Assembly: GCA_041662285.1 (NCBI GenBank)
Contig: JBAZSS010000004.1
Location: 1 to 52,464 of the forward strand
Direction: 5' to 3'
Length of the DNA stretch: 52,464 nt
From: Parcubacteria group bacterium
GTDB lineage: Bacteria; Patescibacteriota; Minisyncoccia; Moranbacterales; UBA2206
Every line of letters begins with the position of its first letter. Position 1 is the stretch's first letter. Below the pieces are notes generated by a model that saw nothing but the letters and a program-made list of their open reading frames with translations, was not told where the DNA came from and ran no database searches. Positions 6,563-41,446 of this stretch are shown one piece after another. The position numbers and the translations under genes were made by a program.

Positions 6563-7339
6563 TTAAAGTTCGAGGTTTTTTATATACTTTGCGAAAAGAA
6601 TCACCTTTTTGGAGTCCTTAGCATTGAATAAAAATGGTTCGACATCCTCAGCTAACTCATTAAAATTAATTTTGTCAGAAAAAATAGCCAGCTTGCTTTT
6701 CAGCTCTTGCCAGTTTTTAATTTTCAATTTCAATTGAAGATAATCATAATTAGGTTTAGTTTTAGAAAGCAAAAATACCGTGTCAAAAAAATCCCTGCCT
6801 TTCAAAGCTTTGCGATTGAAAATTGCAAATATTTTTTGCGACAAAATAATATCCAGCGGGGTGACATTGATTTCTGTGAACACATCAAACTTATTGAGAA
6901 TCGCTTTTTCTGGTTTATATTGAAAATTATGCGGAGCCGTATCTAGCTGAATAAGAATCTTTTCTTCTTCGTAGCCAGAAAGACCGCTATCGAAAAGTAG
7001 TTTTGGAATTCGGATGTAGCAACGATAAGCACCTTTGAAAACATTTCTAATTTCTACTGCATAACCTTCCAGCTCCAGTTGTTTTTTCACCACTAGCGAT
7101 ATTTCATTGAATTCTTTTTCGCTAAGACCAAAATTATCAAAATCCAAATCTTCTGAAAATCTATTGTTATCATAAATGATCCGCAAGGCTGTTCCACCCA
7201 AAAACGCAAGTCTTTTGGCATATTTTGAATTGAAAATAATTTGCAAAATTTTGTATTGCAAATATTCGCGCAACAGATTGCGTTTAAAAACTTGAATATT
7301 TTCAGGATAATATTTTTCGATTTCTTGCAAGCTAAGCAT
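6563..7339 (-). CDS. abiEii: AbiEii/AbiGii-family nucleotidyltransferase toxin (type IV toxin-antitoxin / abortive infection)
   Basis: 258-aa ORF. The N-terminal LREYLQYKILQ...LAFLGGTALRIIYDNNRFSEDLDFD matches the family hallmark. It overlaps the upstream antitoxin ORF by 8 nt. Confidence 0.88.
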   Translation of the reverse strand: MLSLQEIEKYYPENIQVFKRNLLREYLQYKILQIIFNSKYAKRLAFLGGTALRIIYDNNRFSEDLDFDNFGLSEKEFNEISLVVKKQLELEGYAVEIRNVFKGAYRCYIRIPKLLFDSGLSGYEEEKILIQLDTAPHNFQYKPEKAILNKFDVFTEINVTPLDIILSQKIFAIFNRKALKGRDFFDTVFLLSKTKPNYDYLQLKLKIKNWQELKSKLAIFSDKINFNELAEDVEPFLFNAKDSKKVILFAKYIKNLEL

Positions 7340-7946
7340 TGAGATATTTCACAAAATTATTAATTCTTTTTTCCAGTGCCTTATTGTTAAATTGGGATAA
7401 ATATTCATTGAATTTTTTCATATCAACTTTTTCTTGAAATATATCCCTATTAATTCGAAGCTCTTCAAATTCCCCTATTGTCTTAAGCTTAGAATTTACA
7501 TAAAAATAATCTAGGATTGCTTTTTCGATTTCTGCTATTTTGAAATTATGATTTTGATAGGCAACCAACTGATAGCCAAACATAAGCTCGGGCTTGATAT
7601 GATGAAAATTAAACTGACCCAGCGGAGAAGCAAGCTTATAGGTTTTTTTGGATGTGACTGAAGTAATGCCATAAACGCTTTCTGGAATAAGACCATAATA
7701 TGACAGTGCCATTTCCAATGAAATATACGATGGTTCAAAAATTTTATTGGCGATAATAAACAAAACCGACTCATTAATTTGCGTGTCAGAAAAAACATAG
7801 AACCCCTTAGTAATTTTCTTGATGTAGCCTTTTTTCTGCCACTCACTCAATCGTTGCTTATGAAAATCCAAATCAACCTTTGATATATCATTAGCCGAAA
7901 AAACCATAAAATCCTTTAAATTGTCCTTTATTTCTAAATATTGCAT
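7332..7946 (-). CDS. abiEi: AbiEi-family antitoxin / transcriptional regulator
   Basis: 204-aa ORF. N-terminal wHTH-like FSANDISKV...LSEWQKKGYIKKITKGFYVF is typical of AbiEi. Translationally coupled to abiEii. Confidence 0.8.
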   Translation of the reverse strand: MQYLEIKDNLKDFMVFSANDISKVDLDFHKQRLSEWQKKGYIKKITKGFYVFSDTQINESVLFIIANKIFEPSYISLEMALSYYGLIPESVYGITSVTSKKTYKLASPLGQFNFHHIKPELMFGYQLVAYQNHNFKIAEIEKAILDYFYVNSKLKTIGEFEELRINRDIFQEKVDMKKFNEYLSQFNNKALEKRINNFVKYLNA

Positions 7947-7988
7947 AATTATTCCATATTGTTCCTAAAAAGCGGAACTATATGGATT

Positions 7989-8017
7989 ATATTAGCACAT
8001 AATTCCATCGCCGTCAA
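7989..8017 (-). promoter_or_regulatory. candidate promoter of the abiEi-abiEii operon (TTGACG-17 nt-TAATAT on the minus strand)
   Basis: Lies 43-70 nt upstream of the abiEi ATG and overlaps the uvrC stop. A TTATCCACA box sits just upstream of the -35. Confidence 0.45.
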
Positions 8018-9393
8018 ACTAAATTATCCACACCCCCTAAAAATCCTTTACTCCTCAATTTTCTATGATACCCAATCGCAAAGCGGTGGGCTTCGTTTCT
8101 GATTTGCTCGATTATATTTTGGTCTAATTCTGGAACATTGCCGAATGTTCTCAGATCTAGTTTTTTTCGAGTTGGTCCTTTGGCCACTGCTAAAAGTGGA
8201 ATTTCCAGTTTATAATTTTTCAGAATTCTGCGAGCCATATTAAGATGACCCGCTCCCCCATCAAGCAAAATTAAATTGGGCAACGGCCAGCCTCGCGTCG
8301 ACGAGCGGTCGTCTCCGCGAGTCGAGGCGGGCCACTTATTTTCAAATCGTCGCATCAAAACTTCTCGCATTGCACCTACATCATCCGCCCCATCAACTGT
8401 TTTTATTTTGAATTTGCGATACCGAGCTTTATTTGGCCCAATTTCGCCATATGAATTATCAAACACCACCATTGATCCGACATTAAATTTCCCGGAAATA
8501 TTGGAAATGTCATACCCCTCAATCCTCAAAGTCCCCCTCTCCTTTATAAGGAGAGGGTCGGGGTGAGGTTTGTCCGAAATGAGAGCGATATCCCGAATAT
8601 GCTGCAACGCAAAAATTTTGTTTCTAATTTCCCCCGCCTTTTCAAATTCTTCTTTTTTCGAATACTCGGCCATTTCTTTTTTCAATTTAATTAGCAAGTT
8701 TTTCTTTTTCCCCTCCAAAATCATTCTGATCCCGCGAATATTTTTTTGGTAATCACTTTTCGAAATTGCGCCAGCATACGGCCCAGGACAAAGTCCCAGC
8801 TGAAAATCCAGACACCCCTTTTCCGAATTTTCTTTTTTATTGTGATAGGGAAATATTTTTCTCAATATTTTTAGCGCAATTTCGATTTGTTTTTTACTTG
8901 TATAAGGGCCGAAAATCTTAGTATTTTTTAATTCTTTCGCATTACCCCCTCTCCTTAATAAGGAGAGGGTTGGGGTGAGGTTCCCCAGTTCTGTTTTTCT
9001 GACAACCAATAATCGTGGGAAATCTTCTTTAGTTATAGCAACATAGGAAAATGATTTATCATCTTTCCCGTCAACATTATATTTCGACTGAAATTTTTTG
9101 ATCAATTCTTGTTCCAAAATATACGCCTCCAAAACCGTCTCAGTTTTTCTAATTTCAATATCCCTAACTTCCGAAATCATAATTTCAATCGGTCTTGAGG
9201 TTTGACCCCCCTCTCCTTTATAAGGAGAGGGGCTGGGGGTGAGGTGGCGGGGAGGAAAATATGATCCAACTCGGTCTCTTAAGCTTGTCGCCTTTCCAAC
9301 ATAAACAACTTCACCCATCTTATTTTTGAAAACATACACCCCTGGTGAATTGGGAAATTTAGCTATTTTATTTTTTAATTTTAGCAATTTCAT
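8014..9393 (-). CDS. uvrC: excinuclease ABC subunit C, compact form without a C-terminal (HhH)2 domain, carrying three repeat-derived in-frame insertions
   Basis: 459-aa ORF. GIY-YIG (PGVYVFKNKMGEVVYVGKATSLRDRVGSYF), UVR motif (EFEKAGEIRNKIFALQHI) and endonuclease domain (RIEGYDISNISG ... AHRFAIGYHRK). It ends right after the endonuclease domain. Confidence 0.85.
   Translation of the reverse strand: MKLLKLKNKIAKFPNSPGVYVFKNKMGEVVYVGKATSLRDRVGSYFPPRHLTPSPSPYKGEGGQTSRPIEIMISEVRDIEIRKTETVLEAYILEQELIKKFQSKYNVDGKDDKSFSYVAITKEDFPRLLVVRKTELGNLTPTLSLLRRGGNAKELKNTKIFGPYTSKKQIEIALKILRKIFPYHNKKENSEKGCLDFQLGLCPGPYAGAISKSDYQKNIRGIRMILEGKKKNLLIKLKKEMAEYSKKEEFEKAGEIRNKIFALQHIRDIALISDKPHPDPLLIKERGTLRIEGYDISNISGKFNVGSMVVFDNSYGEIGPNKARYRKFKIKTVDGADDVGAMREVLMRRFENKWPASTRGDDRSSTRGWPLPNLILLDGGAGHLNMARRILKNYKLEIPLLAVAKGPTRKKLDLRTFGNVPELDQNIIEQIRNEAHRFAIGYHRKLRSKGFLGGVDNLV
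8533..8570. repeat. GC-rich palindromic element P1 inside uvrC (in frame)
   Basis: CCCCCTCTCCTTTATAAGGAGAGGGTCGGGGTGAGGTT, translated on the minus strand as ...PHPDPLLIKERGT... Confidence 0.85.
8945..8982. repeat. GC-rich palindromic element P2 inside uvrC (in frame)
   Basis: CCCCCTCTCCTTAATAAGGAGAGGGTTGGGGTGAGGTT, translated as ...NLTPTLSLLRRGGN... Confidence 0.85.
9206..9247. repeat. GC-rich palindromic element P3 inside uvrC (in frame)
   Basis: CCCCCCTCTCCTTTATAAGGAGAGGGGCTGGGGGTGAGGTGG, translated as ...HLTPSPSPYKGEGGQ... Confidence 0.85.
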
Positions 9394-9431
9394 ATATTTT
9401 TATTCAGTGTAATCAGGATAATCAGTGCGAA

Positions 9432-12317
9432 TCAGTGGTTCAGAATTTCTCTCAAATATTTCCCTGTCCAACTTTCTTTATGATATTTCGCCACTTCTTC
9501 CGGCGTACCAGAAACAATTAGTTTTCCCCCGCCGTCTCCGCCCTCCGGCCCAAGGTCAATTATCCAATCAGCTGTTTTTATCACATCCATATTATGCTCG
9601 ATGACCACCACGGTGTTGCCGGCGTCCACCAAACGATTCAAAACTTTCAAAAGTTTTTTGATATCATCAAAATGCAAGCCGGTAGTTGGTTCATCTAAAA
9701 TATAGAGTGTGTCGCCTGTGGCTCGACGAGAAAGCTCAGTGGCTAATTTTATCCTCTGCGCTTCTCCGCCAGAAAGTGTGGTGGCACTTTGCCCCAGCTG
9801 AATATACCCCAAGCCCACATCTTCCAAAACTGCTAGCTTATCATGAATTTCAGGAAAATTTTGAAAAAATTCTCGTGCATCCGTGATTGTCAAATCCAAC
9901 ACTTCCGCAATATTTTTCTCCTTATATTTCACTTTCAAAGTTTCACTATTATATCTTTTTCCATTACAAATATCGCACGGCAGATAGACATCCGGCATAA
10001 ATTGCATTTCGATTTTAAGTTGTCCGTCCCCTTGGCAATTGTCGCATCTTCCACCCTTAACATTAAACGAAAATCTCCCAGGAGAATATCCTTTGCTCTT
10101 AGCATCTCGCGTCTCGGCAAAAAGTTCGCGAATAGGTGTGAAAAGGCCGGTGTAGGTGGCCGGATTAGACCTCGGCGTTCTTCCAATTGGACTTTGATCA
10201 ATCATAATAATCTTGTTGATATAGTGCGCGCCAACAATTTCACTGTGCTTGCCAGGGCGATCCAATGTTCGCATAATGTCACGCGCCAAAGATTTATACA
10301 GCACATCTTCGACCAGGGTTGATTTTCCAGAGCCAGAAACTCCCGTCACGCAAGTCAAAACTTTCAAAGGAAATTCTACTGTGACGTTTTTGAGATTATG
10401 CTCACGCGCTCCGCGCACAATAATAGATTTTTTGTTTTTCATACTCCGCCGAGAAGTTGGGATTTCAATGGATAATTCTTTTCGAAGATACTTAGCCGTA
10501 AGTGATTTTTTATTCTTCAAAACTTCCTGCGGTGTTCCAGAAGCGATAATTTCTCCGCCGTGACGCCCCGCTCCTGGACCAATATCCACCAAGTAATCGG
10601 CTGCTAACATTGTTTCTTCGTCATGTTCAACCACAATCAAAGTATTGCCAACATCGCGCAGTCGCAAAAGTGTTTCCAAAAGTTTAGTGTTATCTCTAGC
10701 ATGAAGCCCGACTGATGGTTCATCTAGAATATAGAGTACGCCAACTAATTGCGAACCAATTTGCGAAGCCAAACGAATTCTCTGCGCTTCTCCACCCGCC
10801 AAAGTTGCCGCGCTTCGTCCCAGTGTCAGATATCCCAGTCCTACATTTTCCAAAAAACTCAAACGATTTTTAATTTCGGTGAGAATTCTGCCTGCAATCA
10901 ATTCTTCTTTTTGACTAAATTTCAATTCCTTGAAAAATTTCAACGCTTCAAAAATACTCACCGAAGAAATTTCTGAAATATTTTTGTTATGCACTGTCAC
11001 CAAAAGAACTTCTTTTTTATATCTTACACCAAGACACTCCGAGCAAGGATTTTGCGACATATATTTTTCCGTGTCTGCACGCACCGCATCTGATTGCGTT
11101 TTCTTATATTTATCTTGCAAATAGCCAACCGCTCCGCGCCAATTCATATTATATTTCCAAACCGCCCCTGTTTTTGAGCGTAGTGTCACTGGGATCTGCT
11201 CGGCATTTTCTTCTGAAATCATATCTTTCGCATCTTTGTCTCCAAAGAGCAAGATATTAAAATCTTCTTCCGACAAATCTCGCAAGCGCGTATTTTCTGA
11301 GATATGAAAATGATTTGTCACAGCGCGAAGGATTGTTCCTTGCCAATTATTTTTCTTATAACTCCACGGCATAATTGCCCCTTCAGCAATAGTCTTGTTT
11401 TTATCCGGTGCCACAAGTTGTGGATCGATTTCTTTTTTTGTCCCTAATCCTTCACAAGCTGGGCAAGCCCCATAGGGGCTATTGAAAGAAAACAATCGCG
11501 GTTCCAGTTCCGGAAATTCAATTTCATGAATCGGACAAGCCAAATTTTGATTGAAAACCATTTCATTAACCTTTGACTTTTGACCTTTGACTTTTGACCT
11601 TATTTTAACTAGTCCTTCTGACAATTTCAATGCTTTTTCTACTCCTTCAAAAATCCGCGAAATATTTTTGTCCGAAATTTCAACTTCATCCACCAAAATA
11701 TCAATGCTATGCTTTTTATATTTTTCCAGTTTCATCTGCTCTTTTATCTTGGCATTAAGTTCAATTTTTTTTCCATTGACATAGGCAAAAGAATATCCAC
11801 GTCGAAACATCTCTGAGAGCATAGTGCCGTATTCCCCTTTTCTTTGCCTGACAACTGGCGAAAGAATTTCAATTTGGCATTCTCCGCACATATCAATTAC
11901 CCTATCCACAATTTCATCTACCGAAAGCCTAGTGATTTCTCGATTACACTCCGGACAATGAGGAATTCCAATTTTAGCATAAAGCAACCGCAGATAATCC
12001 TGAATTTCCGTCACTGTGCCCACAGTGGAGCGTGGATTATGCGAAGCCGCTTTTTGATCAATCGAAATGGCCGGTGAAAGGCCTTCAATATAATCGACAT
12101 CCGGCTTGTCCATTTGACCCAAAAACTGCCGAGCATAAGAAGACAAACTTTCCAAATAGCGCCTTTGACCTTCCGCAAAAATTGTGTCAAAAGCCAGCGT
12201 GCTCTTGCCAGAACCGCTAATGCCCGTGAAAACTATGAATTTATTTCTCGGAAGCTTAAGATCAATATTTTTTAAATTATGTTCTCTTGCTCCTTTAATA
12301 ATAATCTCGTCTTGCAT
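9432..12317 (-). CDS. uvrA: excinuclease ABC subunit A
   Basis: 961-aa [71 protein letters not shown]. Two ABC signatures ([24 protein letters not shown]) and zinc modules. Confidence 0.95.
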   Translation of the reverse strand: MQDEIIIKGAREHNLKNIDLKLPRNKFIVFTGISGSGKSTLAFDTIFAEGQRRYLESLSSYARQFLGQMDKPDVDYIEGLSPAISIDQKAASHNPRSTVGTVTEIQDYLRLLYAKIGIPHCPECNREITRLSVDEIVDRVIDMCGECQIEILSPVVRQRKGEYGTMLSEMFRRGYSFAYVNGKKIELNAKIKEQMKLEKYKKHSIDILVDEVEISDKNISRIFEGVEKALKLSEGLVKIRSKVKGQKSKVNEMVFNQNLACPIHEIEFPELEPRLFSFNSPYGACPACEGLGTKKEIDPQLVAPDKNKTIAEGAIMPWSYKKNNWQGTILRAVTNHFHISENTRLRDLSEEDFNILLFGDKDAKDMISEENAEQIPVTLRSKTGAVWKYNMNWRGAVGYLQDKYKKTQSDAVRADTEKYMSQNPCSECLGVRYKKEVLLVTVHNKNISEISSVSIFEALKFFKELKFSQKEELIAGRILTEIKNRLSFLENVGLGYLTLGRSAATLAGGEAQRIRLASQIGSQLVGVLYILDEPSVGLHARDNTKLLETLLRLRDVGNTLIVVEHDEETMLAADYLVDIGPGAGRHGGEIIASGTPQEVLKNKKSLTAKYLRKELSIEIPTSRRSMKNKKSIIVRGAREHNLKNVTVEFPLKVLTCVTGVSGSGKSTLVEDVLYKSLARDIMRTLDRPGKHSEIVGAHYINKIIMIDQSPIGRTPRSNPATYTGLFTPIRELFAETRDAKSKGYSPGRFSFNVKGGRCDNCQGDGQLKIEMQFMPDVYLPCDICNGKRYNSETLKVKYKEKNIAEVLDLTITDAREFFQNFPEIHDKLAVLEDVGLGYIQLGQSATTLSGGEAQRIKLATELSRRATGDTLYILDEPTTGLHFDDIKKLLKVLNRLVDAGNTVVVIEHNMDVIKTADWIIDLGPEGGDGGGKLIVSGTPEEVAKYHKESWTGKYLREILNH
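11570..11601. repeat. 14-nt tandem repeat (2.3 copies) inside uvrA, in frame
   Basis: CCTTTGACTTTTGACCTTTGACTTTTGACCTT on the + strand, encoding SKVKGQKSKV. Confidence 0.8.
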
Positions 12318-12337: not shown

Positions 12338-12373
12338 ATTCGTACATTCGTACAGATTCGTAATTCGTAAGGG
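12338..12373. repeat. F1 (ATTCGTA-word) repeat, single arm
   Basis: ATTCGTACATTCGTACAGATTCGTAATTCGTAAGGG between lexA and uvrA. No complementary arm nearby. Confidence 0.7.
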
Positions 12374-12467
12374 ACACAAAAACCTGCCCCCTTTTGAGGT
12401 ACTTAATATTAATTTTTATCTTTCAATCATATTACACTTTAGCGCGAATATATGTTTCAATCAAGCT

Positions 12468-13136
12468 TTATAAACTAACGTACTTTACTGGCAAAACTTT
12501 CTTGAAAATTCCGGCAATTAGGATTGAATCGGATGAGTGAATGAAAATTGGTTGATGAATGGTGTTGGTAGATTTTGGAAAAAGTCCGATAATATCTGAG
12601 CTAACTTTCTTGTACCTTTTGATTGTCGCCATACCGTTTATCACGGCTACTACAATTTTTCCTTCCAAATCTTCTCCGTTAGAATATTCATATTTTTCAA
12701 AAATAGCATAATCACCATCATTAATTCCATCTTTATCCATTGAATCCCCAAGAGTCTTCACTGCAAAAAGTTGAGCACTATCCGCTCCGCGAAAAAGCGC
12801 TTTGGAAATTTGCAAAAATCCATCGACATTGTCCTGGGCATAGGCCAAAGCTTCACCACAAGAAGCCAAGCCATAAACTGGAATGGAAAAAATATTTTTT
12901 AGATTGGCAAAACTTTCATTTTCCACTAAATATACTTTTCTATCTTTGTCTCTTTTAATCAAATCTTTTTTCTCCAGAGCTTCTATCACCTGCATCACCG
13001 ATTTCAAACTGTCTCGCACACCTTGCGCTTCCAAATATTTATGCAATTTATAGCTAGTTGGATTTTCCCCGCGTTGTTCAATTAGCTCGCGGATGCTTTC
13101 TAAGATACTTTGTTGTTTGGCTGTTAGTGTTGGCAT
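12468..13136 (-). CDS. lexA: LexA-type repressor (S24 peptidase)
   Basis: 222-aa ORF. N-terminal wHTH, cleavage-region GLASCGEAL, catalytic GDSM serine motif and ATIKRYKK lysine motif. Confidence 0.82.
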   Translation of the reverse strand: MPTLTAKQQSILESIRELIEQRGENPTSYKLHKYLEAQGVRDSLKSVMQVIEALEKKDLIKRDKDRKVYLVENESFANLKNIFSIPVYGLASCGEALAYAQDNVDGFLQISKALFRGADSAQLFAVKTLGDSMDKDGINDGDYAIFEKYEYSNGEDLEGKIVVAVINGMATIKRYKKVSSDIIGLFPKSTNTIHQPIFIHSSDSILIAGIFKKVLPVKYVSL

Positions 13137-41390: not shown

Positions 41391-41446
41391 CCTCTTCCCT
41401 CTCCCGACGATGAGTACATCGTCGACCTCTCCCTAAGGGAGAGGTG
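41391..41446. repeat. second GC-rich hairpin cluster immediately 3' of map
   Basis: CGACGATG-AGTA-CATCGTCG, then CCTCTCCC-TAA-GGGAGAGG (related to the uvrC palindromes). Confidence 0.7.

What the first reader, a model, noticed from the sequence alone, without database searches (positions are those of the whole stretch)
8014..9393. uvrC carries three in-frame copies of a GC-rich palindromic element
- CCCCTCTCCTT(T/A)ATAAGGAGAGGG(T/G)(C/T)(T)GGGGTGAGGT occurs at 8533, 8945 and 9206.
- All three copies are in the same orientation and sit inside an otherwise AT-rich gene. All preserve the frame.
- They translate to PHPDPLLIKERGT, NLTPTLSLLRRGGN and HLTPSPSPYKGEGGQ.
- They fall in positions that look like inter-domain or loop regions: after the GIY-YIG SYF motif, before the FGPY motif, and just before RIEGYDISN.
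- Each copy can form a 10-11 bp hairpin.
- Three hits in one 1.4-kb gene and none in the other about 45 kb of coding sequence is striking. uvrC is also flanked by the AbiE island.
- Possibilities include a tolerated selfish element with a target preference, structured sites that modulate translation or decay of uvrC mRNA, or a gene on its way to inactivation.
Basis: seen in the sequence. Interest (0 to 1): 0.6.

Follow-up and report, generated by a model that had tools for sequence, protein, structure and literature searches.

The report
Triplex-type repeats translated inside uvrC
Three copies of a 37-40-base selfish DNA repeat of the known BoxC/"intrastrand triplex" kind sit in frame in surface loops of the DNA-repair gene uvrC of a Moranbacteria (candidate-phyla) genome and appear to be read as protein. 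That recalls the palindromic elements of Rickettsia, but here the repeat also brackets a small nuclease gene (DUF559) that may be what moves it.

Summary
Three copies of CCCCCTCTCC-TT(T/A)ATAA-GGAGAGGG-N3-GGGGTGAGGT lie at window 8533-8569, 8945-8981 and 9206-9245. All sit in frame in the minus-strand uvrC (8014-9393), and none is expected by chance.

- **Lineage-specific inserts.** In 120 Moranbacteria UvrC orthologues, half have only 6-8 residues at site 1. Within the genus, the site-2 copy is unique to this genome, site 1 is shared with one genome, and site 3 with four.
- **Position in the protein.** In an AlphaFold model the inserts are exactly the low-confidence loops. The catalytic residues are intact.
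- **What the element is.** It has the BoxC/PIT/TMECO "intrastrand triplex motif" build: a pyrimidine arm, a purine arm, and a mirror G-rich tail.
- **Census.** The genome has 34 such hairpins, and about two thirds lie in frame inside genes such as leuS, polA and miaB.
- **Why it is tolerated.** The C-rich strand is almost free of stop codons. The three uvrC copies use three different frames, each with the loop variant that avoids a stop.
- **Conservation.** Shared copies are 93-100% identical between species whose uvrC is about 80% identical.
- **DUF559 link.** Inverted copies bracket the DUF559 nuclease gene in 25 of 25 related loci. That this nuclease moves the element is inferred, not shown.

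The parts
8014..9393 (-). uvrC. It is 459 aa with GIY-YIG, UVR and RNase H-like endonuclease domains and no C-terminal HhH domain, as in all Moranbacteria orthologues found. It hosts four in-frame repeat insertions.
   Evidence: ORF. Pfam. 8000 orthologues at E<=1e-10, the best named Candidatus Moranbacteria. Invariant catalytic columns are kept.
8533..8569 (-). Copy 1, at uvrC site 3 in the linker before the RNase H-like domain. It is 37 nt. The mRNA sense reads ACCTCACCCCGACCCTCTCCTTATAAAGGAGAGGGGG and is translated as PHPDPLLIKERG (aa 276-287).
   Evidence: stem 10 bp, tail 10/10 by the triplex rule. Shared with G001, G005, G007 and G008 with identical junctions. pLDDT<50 at residues 270-286.
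8945..8981 (-). Copy 2, at uvrC site 2 in the loop before FGPY. It is 37 nt with loop TTATTAA and is translated as NLTPTLSLLRRGG (aa 138-150). It is the only one of the three unique to this genome within its genus.
   Evidence: It shares an exact 35-nt stretch with the element at the right boundary of the DUF559 unit of the same genome, C44:4597-4631. The loop variant removes the TAA that the TTATAAA loop would give in this frame. pLDDT<50 at residues 141-152.
9206..9245 (-). Copy 3, at uvrC site 1 in the GIY-YIG domain after SYF. It is a 40-nt variant with one extra C in the head, Y-arm and R-arm. It is translated as HLTPSPSPYKGEGGQ (aa 50-64), and the extra base shifts the frame inside the element.
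   Evidence: Shared only with G001, at 93% nt identity. pLDDT<50 at residues 50-64.
8285..8334 (-). Fourth in-frame insert, from a different repeat family. A 39-nt GC-rich palindrome lies between two GGCCA direct repeats 45 nt apart and is translated as PASTRGDDRSSTRGW (aa 355-369).
   Evidence: A clean 45-nt indel against three orthologues. Shared with G001, G007 and G008. Absent from 104 of 120 orthologues. RNA fold -29.7 kcal/mol. pLDDT<50 at residues 354-366.
12440..12470 (.). Empty site of a DUF559 unit, between the lexA-like gene and uvrA. Two genomes of the same genus carry here about 560 bp made of hairpin+tail, a DUF559 gene, and head+hairpin.
   Evidence: Three-way alignment with conserved flanks. 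The lexA-like gene is identified by Pfam.
41425..41445 (.). Intergenic relative of the family. It is an ACCTCTCCCT-A-AGGGAGAGGT hairpin whose mirror tail sits behind a second small hairpin.

Best explanation
**What the segments are.** The three segments are separate insertions of a 37-40-nt repeat of the intrastrand-triplex-motif kind (BoxC / PIT / TMECO).
- On the G-rich strand the repeat reads: pyrimidine arm CCCTCTCC, an AT loop, purine arm GGAGAGGG, a 3-nt spacer, then the G-rich tail GGGTGAGG, which mirrors the purine arm.
- The repeat spreads through the genome as selfish DNA.

**Why copies survive inside genes (shown from sequence).**
- Pure pyrimidine and pure purine tracts cannot hold stop codons, so the C-rich strand is open in two of three frames.
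- A one-base change in the loop opens the third frame.
- The encoded Pro/Ser/Leu-Gly/Glu/Arg/Lys peptides of 12-15 residues suit flexible surface loops.

**How the pattern arises (inferred).** Selection removes every insertion that breaks the frame or hits folded parts. What remains are 3n-long copies in the few permissive loops of UvrC. These loops have been filled again and again, by this and other repeat families, across Moranbacteria. The inserts are transcribed and translated as part of UvrC, which stays functional.

**What moves the repeat (inferred, not shown).** Inverted copies of the same repeat form the two ends of a small unit that encodes a Vsr-like DUF559 nuclease. That nuclease is the best candidate for the enzyme that copies or maintains the repeat. 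In close relatives such a unit sits a few kb from uvrC, next to uvrA, which could help explain why uvrC collected three copies.
For: **Real, multi-copy, non-random**
- 3 copies in the window against 0 expected.
- 34 perfect Y/R hairpins in the genome against 0 in shuffles.
- About 0.006 genes are expected to hold 3 or more copies.

**Lineage-specific 3n insertions in loops**
- Alignments of 30, 8 and 120 orthologues.
- An AlphaFold model with mean pLDDT 80 has pLDDT<50 exactly at the four inserts.
- Alignments to solved UvrC domains show a gap at site 5 and put site 3 just N-terminal of the matched RNase H-like domain; the GIY-YIG match spans about 15 more query residues than the chain.

**Three independent events**
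- Different distribution within the genus.
- Three different frames, with matching loop variants.

**Triplex-motif build**
- The tail obeys G*G / A*A / T*A mirror pairing at 90% or more in 26 of 34 copies, against 0.7% of random controls. It co-varies with the arm: GGAGAGGG with GGGTGAGG, GGAGAAGG with GGATGAGG.
- The published TMECO is 37 nt, CCCTCNCCC N3-6 GGGNGAGGG N3 GGGNGAGGG (PMC4666352).
- One copy inside polA matches that consensus exactly.

**Other genes hit in frame**
- leuS, polA, miaB, a reverse transcriptase, glycosyltransferases and a Wzy_C protein with 5 copies.
- miaB has filled and empty alleles within the genus.

**Not a pseudogene**
- All invariant columns of 112 orthologues are kept.

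**DUF559 link**
- The genome's only DUF559 gene has a copy 31 nt upstream (17 nt counting the G-rich tail) and another at the unit's far end.
- 25 of 25 DUF559 loci in relatives have such a hairpin within 150 nt upstream, and 18 of 25 on both sides. The background is about 0.1 per 300 nt in the same loci.
- The hairpin subfamily co-varies with the DUF559 lineage.
- The unit is present or absent next to uvrA.
- The whole unit lies in frame inside a methylase and an HsdS.
- Genomes with DUF559 have more hairpins: median 8 against 1, p=1e-4, or p=0.004 without the focal genus.
- uvrC copy 2 is identical over 35 nt to the unit's right end.
Against: - There is no direct evidence of transcription or translation of the inserts, and no read-level check.
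- Copy 2 is seen only in this assembly.
- No target-site duplication or clean junction was found for this family. In miaB the net difference is 33 nt with blurred borders. The mode of insertion is therefore unknown.
- The shared copies are much better conserved than the gene around them. Plain "tolerated junk" does not predict this. It points to constraint on the nucleic-acid structure, gene conversion, or repeated site-specific insertion.
- One genome of the genus (G008) has 20 hairpins but no DUF559 gene. Solo copies thus persist without the nuclease, and the nuclease could be a passenger.
- The correlation across genomes is not corrected for phylogeny.
Confidence: 0.78

Rival explanations
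1. The copies are kept because the nucleic-acid structure does something useful for the host at this gene. The job might be done by the DNA hairpin or triplex, or by the -15 to -25 kcal/mol RNA hairpin with its internal AAGGAG Shine-Dalgarno-like arm. Examples would be pausing ribosomes between UvrC domains, tuning mRNA decay, or marking a recombination or repair site.
For: - Copies shared between species are 93-100% identical while uvrC is 80-82% identical, and third codon positions are 68-73% identical. The only variation in the site-3 copy is in the hairpin loop.
- The same three loops carry the same family in a distant orthologue (P0008), with different junctions.
- All three sites lie at or near domain borders.
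Against: - The closest relatives have other repeat families, or nothing, at sites 1 and 2.
- Half of 120 orthologues have the short, empty form of site 1.
- No compensatory changes were seen, only invariance.
- Published tests of the E. coli elements found no promoter, terminator or polymerase effect in vivo (as summarised in PMC4666352).
- Conservation can equally come from gene conversion among copies or from recent re-insertion.
Confidence: 0.12
2. uvrC is decaying. The inserts are early lesions in a gene that this reduced genome no longer needs.
For: - Four foreign inserts in one 1.4-kb gene.
- The genome is small and reduced at 1.07 Mb.
- The gene lacks the C-terminal HhH domain of classical UvrC.
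Against: - The ORF is intact.
- Every invariant residue of 112 orthologues is kept, among them Y20, Y31, R41, E89 and N106 in the GIY-YIG domain and D295, D378 and H436 in the RNase H-like domain.
- uvrA next door is intact at 961 aa.
- The short form without HhH is shared by all Moranbacteria orthologues found.
- The inserts sit only in loops.
- The site-3 copy has coexisted with an intact gene in five species.
Confidence: 0.03
3. One or more copies, above all the unique copy 2, are assembly artefacts produced by repeat-induced mis-joining in a metagenome-assembled genome.
For: - Copy 2 is found in no other assembly.
- It is identical over 35 nt to another locus of the genome.
- Reads could not be inspected.
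Against: - A chimeric join would not leave a precisely in-frame 3n insertion with both uvrC flanks collinear.
- The loop variant is the one needed for that frame.
- The same family at the same loop occurs in independent assemblies, P0008 and P0055.
- Copies 1 and 3 are seen in other genomes, and P0001, which holds copy 1, is on 17 contigs.
Confidence: 0.04
4. The segments are not translated. They are skipped by ribosomes, as with the 'byp' hop elements of Magnusiomyces mitochondria or T4 gene 60, or they are removed from the RNA.
For: GC-rich hairpin inserts in an AT-rich genome resemble byps in form (own knowledge).
Against: - All intragenic copies examined are 3n in net length and free of stops.
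- The loop variants present are exactly those that avoid stops in the frame used.
- Such constraints would not exist if the segments were skipped.
- No Rfam family matches.
Confidence: 0.02

Closest known systems
BoxC / PIT elements / TMECO intrastrand triplex motifs of E. coli and more than 260 other bacterial genomes (Holder et al. 2015, PMC4666352; earlier work by Bachellier and Hoyne is cited there)
   Same: - The three-block build is the same: pyrimidine arm, loop, purine arm, about 3-nt spacer, then a G-rich block that mirrors the purine arm.
- The length is the same at 37 nt.
- Both are G/C-rich, multi-copy and highly conserved within a genome, and both sometimes occur as inverted pairs.
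- One copy here, inside polA, matches the published consensus exactly.
   Different: - The arm sequence of the main family is CCCTCTCC, not CCCTCNCCC.
- About two thirds of copies here lie inside reading frames and are read in frame. The E. coli copies are reported as always intergenic.
- The paper found no link to mobile elements. Here the repeats form the inverted ends of DUF559 nuclease units.
- Triplex formation by these sequences has not been tested.
Rickettsia palindromic elements (RPE; Ogata et al. 2000, 2002, as reviewed in PMC10969869)
   Same: Both are selfish palindromic repeats inserted in frame into many unrelated housekeeping genes of a small genome. Both are translated as extra surface peptides compatible with protein fold and function.
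   Different: - RPEs are about 100-150 bp, unrelated in sequence, and not of triplex build.
- RPEs have no associated nuclease gene.
- The host group differs: intracellular alpha-proteobacteria against groundwater-type Moranbacteria.
REP / REPIN elements with their RAYT (Y1) transposases
   Same: Both are 20-40-nt hairpin repeats with a conserved linear motif beside the stem. Both occur singly or as inverted doublets, and inverted copies flank a single-copy gene for a nuclease-type enzyme.
   Different: - There is no GTAG or CGTC head.
- The flanked gene is a PD-(D/E)xK Vsr-like DUF559, not a Y1 transposase.
- The three Y1 genes of this genome are not flanked by this family.
- REPs are extragenic.
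Vsr-like (EDxHD) homing endonucleases such as I-Bth0305I (PMC3239194, PMC2677866)
   Same: Both involve a small Vsr-fold nuclease carried by a selfish insert that can sit inside host genes.
   Different: - Those enzymes ride in introns or inteins that splice out.
- Here no splicing element exists, and the unit or its solo ends stay in the product.
- No cleavage activity or target is known for this DUF559.

Membership tests
BoxC / PIT / TMECO intrastrand triplex motif | G/C-rich hairpin made of an all-pyrimidine arm and its all-purine complement | tested here: met
   There are 34 perfect hairpins with stems of 7 bp or more in the genome and 0 in shuffles. The uvrC copies have 10-11-bp stems.
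BoxC / PIT / TMECO intrastrand triplex motif | A third, G-rich block after a short spacer that mirrors the purine arm (purine-motif triplets G*G, A*A, T*A) | tested here: met
   26 of 34 copies score 90% or more, against 0.7% of random controls. The tail co-varies with the arm. The three uvrC copies score 10/10, 10/11 and 10/11 with a 3-nt spacer.
BoxC / PIT / TMECO intrastrand triplex motif | Match to the published consensus CCCTCNCCC N3-6 GGGNGAGGG N3 GGGNGAGGG (37 nt) | tested here: inconclusive
   One exact match exists, inside polA at C28:1201. The uvrC family has the same length and layout but CCCTCTCC/GGAGAGGG arms and a 7-nt loop (PMC4666352).
BoxC / PIT / TMECO intrastrand triplex motif | Folds into an intrastrand triplex (CD, NMR, footprint) | not testable with these tools
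   Only sequence rules could be checked.
BoxC / PIT / TMECO intrastrand triplex motif | Intergenic location, described for E. coli | tested here: not met
   About 23 of 34 copies lie deep inside long ORFs. This is a descriptive trait of the E. coli copies rather than a defining one.
Rickettsia palindromic elements (RPE) | Palindromic repeat of about 100-150 bp from one of the described RPE families | tested here: not met
   The element is 37-40 nt with a different build. It works like an RPE but is not a member.
Rickettsia palindromic elements (RPE) | In-frame insertion into many unrelated housekeeping genes, at surface positions | tested here: met
   Insertions in uvrC, leuS, polA, miaB and others. 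The inserts coincide with the low-pLDDT loops.
REP / REPIN-RAYT | Conserved GTAG or CGTC tetranucleotide at one end of the palindrome | tested here: not met
   The head is ACCTCACCCC.
REP / REPIN-RAYT | A Y1 (RAYT) transposase gene flanked by the same repeat | tested here: not met
   None of the three Y1_Tnp genes in the genome is flanked by this family. One has its own CCTAAAGC hairpins.
MITE (non-autonomous DDE-transposon derivative) | Terminal inverted repeats plus target-site duplication | tested here: not met
   No duplication appears at five junctions (uvrC x3, leuS, miaB). The miaB borders are blurred, with a net difference of 33 nt.
Translational bypass ('byp') elements | Inserts not constrained to 3n or to be free of stops | tested here: not met
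   All intragenic copies are in frame and stop-free, with loop variants matched to the frame used.

The most novel reading that the evidence does not exclude
The 37-nt elements are the non-autonomous ends of an undescribed kind of bacterial mobile element.
- Its only protein is a Vsr-like DUF559 nuclease, and its termini are triplex-type hairpins.
- Both the full unit and its solo ends settle in frame inside essential genes without any splicing.
- They are actively kept intact by nuclease-driven copying or gene conversion. That would explain why copies are 93-100% identical in genes that have diverged by 20%.
- On this reading, the three copies in uvrC are local fallout from a DUF559 unit that in sister genomes sits in the lexA-uvrA-uvrC neighbourhood.
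- DUF559 would then be the long-missing partner of the BoxC/PIT repeats.
Probability: 0.3. Interest if true: 0.8.

Novelty: new variant of a known kind. Interest (0 to 1): 0.6.

Why it matters
- **BoxC/PIT repeats have lacked an explanation.** These triplex repeats have been known since the 1990s without a function, a mechanism of spread or a protein partner, and they were described as intergenic in E. coli, the species examined. Here the same kind of repeat lives mainly inside genes and is apparently translated. It is better conserved than its host genes, and it forms the inverted ends of a DUF559 nuclease unit that is present or absent between sister genomes. That gives a concrete, testable candidate for the enzyme behind a very widespread repeat class.
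- **Protein variation in candidate-phyla bacteria.** Part of the length variation of conserved proteins in these bacteria is repeat-derived loop filling. This matters for annotation, alignment and structure prediction in these genomes.
- **An unexplained target.** A DNA-repair gene is repeatedly hit at the same three loops in separate lineages. This curiosity remains unexplained.

Tried and rejected
- **Independent record of this UvrC.** None exists.
- **RAYT/REP idea.** The three Y1 transposase genes are not flanked by the family.
- **Rfam.** No RNA family matches in 7800-9600 at E<=1.
- **Target-site duplication.** None was found at five junctions. The miaB filled-versus-empty comparison gives a 33-nt net difference with blurred borders, so the exact inserted unit could not be defined.
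- **First AlphaFold run.** The 30-sequence alignment gave pLDDT 62, too poor for the middle domain. It was repeated with 112 sequences, giving pLDDT 80.
- **Literature.**
  - No paper combined "palindromic element" with "Candidate Phyla Radiation".
  - None of the listed hits for Moranbacteria with palindromic, repeat and insertion mentions Moranbacteria.
  - None of the 22 listed DUF559 papers, judged by title and abstract, links it to hairpin or BoxC repeats.
- **Orientation bias.** In the strict-tail subset, 9 intragenic copies have the C-rich strand as sense and 5 the G-rich strand. This is in the direction expected from stop codons, but the sample is too small to test.
Full report
**1. 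The observation**

The window's minus-strand ORF 8014..9393 encodes a 459-aa UvrC with GIY-YIG, UVR and RNase H-like endonuclease domains. Its best relatives are UvrC proteins of Candidatus Moranbacteria, in the candidate phyla radiation.

- The core CCCCTCTCCTTWATAAGGAGAGGG occurs three times on the + strand, at 8534, 8946 and 9208. No matches appeared in 100 dinucleotide shuffles.
- With flanks, the copies are 8533-8569 (37 nt), 8945-8981 (37 nt) and 9206-9245 (40 nt).
- All are in the same orientation and in frame.
- The RNA hairpins fold at about -15 to -25 kcal/mol.
- No Rfam family matches.

**2. They are insertions**

- In alignments of 30 and then 120 Moranbacteria UvrC sequences, the three segments fall in three of five hypervariable sites, between blocks of invariant residues.
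- At site 1 (after SYF), 61 of 120 orthologues have only 6-8 residues where this protein has 20.
- Within the genus (nine species-level genomes):
  - the site-1 copy is shared only with G001;
  - the site-2 copy is unique to this genome;
  - the site-3 copy is shared with G001, G005, G007 and G008, with identical junctions.
- The three copies therefore entered at different times.
- Other lineages carry quite different palindrome-derived peptides at the same sites. Examples are VGNAYMRSLQ, GREQKFLFPT, GVQFIEP...GLINQTPT and NFQFSIF....
- A fourth insert from another family lies at 8285-8334. It is a 39-nt palindrome between GGCCA direct repeats 45 nt apart, and it is a clean 45-nt indel.

**3. 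Where they sit in the protein**

- An AlphaFold model built on 112 orthologues has mean pLDDT 80. Its pLDDT falls below 50 at residues 50-64, 141-152, 270-286 and 354-366. These are the four inserts. The only other such stretches are a loop at 104-113 and the C-terminal tip.
- Alignments to solved UvrC domains (3C65, 2NRT) show a gap at site 5 and place site 3 just before the matched RNase H-like domain. The GIY-YIG domain match (1YD6) spans about 15 more query residues than the chain.
- All residues invariant in 112 orthologues are kept. They include Y20, Y31, R41, E89 and N106 in the GIY-YIG domain and D295, D378 and H436 in the RNase H-like domain. The gene does not look like a pseudogene.

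**4. What the element is**

The genome is 1.07 Mb, 35.8% G+C, in 51 contigs. It has 34 perfect hairpins made of an all-pyrimidine arm and its all-purine complement, against none in shuffles.

- Behind the purine arm lies a G-rich tail that mirrors the arm under the purine-motif triplex rule (G*G, A*A, T*A).
  - It follows after 3 nt, or after a second small hairpin of 12-19 nt.
  - 26 of 34 copies score 90% or more, against 0.7% of random controls.
  - The tail co-varies with the arm: GGAGAGGG with GGGTGAGG, GGAGAAGG with GGATGAGG, and GGGAGAGGA with AGGAGAGGG.
- This is the build of the BoxC / PIT / TMECO "intrastrand triplex motif". That motif is 37 nt with consensus CCCTCNCCC N3-6 GGGNGAGGG N3 GGGNGAGGG. 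[quoted passage not shown]
- One copy here, inside polA, fits that consensus exactly.
- The E. coli copies are reported as always intergenic, with no link to mobile elements. Both points differ here.

**5. Census and frames**

- About 23 of the 34 copies lie deep inside long ORFs, in frame. The hosts are:
  - leuS, uvrC (3 copies), polA and miaB;
  - a reverse transcriptase and two glycosyltransferases;
  - a Wzy_C-type membrane protein (5 copies) and others.
- In miaB the genus shows filled alleles (G000, G002, G004) and empty alleles (six genomes). G002 has an extra 21-nt hairpin module nested in the element, still in frame.
- Pure pyrimidine and pure purine tracts cannot contain stop codons, so only the AT loop and the T in the tail matter:
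  - The C-rich strand of the consensus is open in two of three frames with loop TTATAAA.
  - The third frame opens with loop TTATTAA.
  - The G-rich strand is open in one frame only.
- The three uvrC copies use three different readings:

| Copy | Peptide | Loop or variant that keeps the frame open |
|---|---|---|
| 1 | PHP.PLLIKERG | open with either loop |
| 2 | LTPTLSLLRRG | has the TTATTAA loop that this frame needs |
| 3 | starts as LTP, then SPSPYKGEG | one extra base moves it to the second frame, which needs TTATAAA, and it has that loop |

- This is what selection for an open frame would leave.
- Three copies in one 1.4-kb gene is more than uniform scatter gives: about 0.006 such genes are expected genome-wide.

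**6. Two things that plain "tolerated junk" does not predict**

- **Conservation.** Copies shared between species are 93-100% identical. The rest of uvrC is 80-82% identical, and third codon positions are 68-73% identical. In the site-3 copy almost the only variable positions are in the hairpin loop.
- **Repeated colonisation.** A distant orthologue (P0008, 66% identity) has the same family at the same three loops. Its junctions and frames differ, so these are independent insertions. Ten orthologues have the family at site 1, five at site 2, eight at site 3 and two at site 5.

Three explanations could account for this: structural constraint, gene conversion among copies, or repeated site-preferring insertion. 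I could not separate them.

**7. The nuclease link**

I looked for what might move the element.

- The three Y1 (RAYT/IS200-type) genes of the genome are not flanked by it.
- The genome's single DUF559 gene (Vsr-like PD-(D/E)xK, 118 aa, contig C44) has a copy upstream of its start codon: the hairpin ends 31 nt before it, the G-rich tail 17 nt. A head-to-hairpin copy lies at the far end of the unit. That far-end copy is identical over 35 nt to uvrC copy 2.
- In 25 DUF559 loci from 17 related genomes:
  - all 25 have such a hairpin within 150 nt upstream;
  - 18 have one on both sides, in inverted orientation with the tail next to the gene;
  - the background in the same loci is about 0.1 per 300 nt;
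  - the hairpin subfamily changes with the DUF559 lineage.
- In two loci the whole unit lies in frame inside a larger gene, a DNA methylase and a type I HsdS.
- Two sister genomes carry an approximately 560-bp unit between the lexA-like gene and uvrA. This window has the empty site there, at about 12465. In a third sister the DUF559 gene abuts uvrC itself.
- Genomes with DUF559 have more of these hairpins: median 8 against 1, Mann-Whitney p=1e-4, or p=0.004 without the focal genus. This is not corrected for phylogeny, and G008 has 20 hairpins with no DUF559.
- After I had these results, the scan's notes showed that other agents had reported the same gene-repeat pairing in other phyla and had named BoxC/PIT as the nearest published repeat. 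I then checked that name against the paper and with the mirror-rule test.
- I found no publication that links DUF559 to these repeats.

**8. Verdict**

- The finding is real. It is best read as three independent in-frame insertions of a triplex-motif (BoxC/PIT-type) selfish repeat into permissive loops of a functional uvrC. It works like the Rickettsia palindromic elements (PMC10969869), but the element is of a different, known repeat class.
- **Shown:** the copies, their insertion status, their loop positions, the triplex-type build, the genome-wide intragenic habit, the frame logic, the excess conservation, and the physical link with DUF559 genes.
- **Inferred:** that the inserts are translated and harmless, and that DUF559 moves or maintains the repeat.

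Noticed in passing
window 8285-8334: A fourth in-frame insert in uvrC from an unrelated repeat family. A 39-nt GC palindrome lies between GGCCA direct repeats 45 nt apart and looks like a 5-bp target duplication. It encodes PASTRGDDRSSTRGW and is shared by four genomes of the genus.
   Followed up: partly
window about 12440-12470 (junction near 12465/12466): An empty site between the lexA-like gene (12468-13136) and uvrA. Sister genomes G001 and G002 have here an approximately 560-bp DUF559 nuclease unit with hairpin ends.
   Followed up: yes
L031:85-3318 and L032:1-1266 (genome G038): A whole DUF559 unit with its hairpin ends lies in frame inside a large DNA methylase/restriction-type protein and inside a type I HsdS specificity subunit.
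   Followed up: partly
L016 / L042 (genome G005, contig C32:2964-4596): The DUF559 gene ends right at the uvrC start codon and overlaps it in another frame. The nuclease unit is therefore immediately upstream of uvrC in this sister genome.
   Followed up: no
genome contig C6:5152-7065: A Wzy_C (O-antigen-ligase-like) membrane protein carries five copies of the element in both orientations. It also carries several NVPRGTF segments from another palindrome (GTTCCACGTGGAAC).
   Followed up: partly
genome contig C2:1-1794 (L044): leuS has an in-frame element copy (RPHPNPLLIKERGL). It also has a NUDIX domain (aa 427-536) embedded after the editing domain.
   Followed up: no
L055 (G002 miaB) versus L046 (G000 miaB): The miaB copy of G002 has an extra 21-nt hairpin (CTGCCTCGCCGGCAGGCGGGC) nested between head and pyrimidine arm, still in frame. 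The elements are modular and are themselves targets for other hairpins.
   Followed up: no
genome contig C7:3313-3981: A RAYT-like Y1 transposase gene is flanked on both sides by its own hairpin (CCTAAAGC-TTCG-GCTTTAGG). It is a separate REP-type system in the same genome.
   Followed up: no
window 12338-12372: A run of TACGAAT-type heptamers (ttcgtacattcgtacagattcgtaattcgtaa) lies just upstream of uvrA and is conserved in G001 and G002. Other agents have already described it for this genome.
   Followed up: no
window 6563-7946: An AbiEii toxin gene (Pfam 1.7e-19) lies directly downstream of uvrC, with a 204-aa upstream partner that has no Pfam match. Four related uvrC loci carry other genes at that position, so it looks like a variable island.
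   Followed up: partly
window 8014-9393 and all 120 orthologues: Moranbacteria UvrC is a short form of about 406-509 aa, without the C-terminal (HhH)2 DNA-binding domain of classical UvrC.
   Followed up: no
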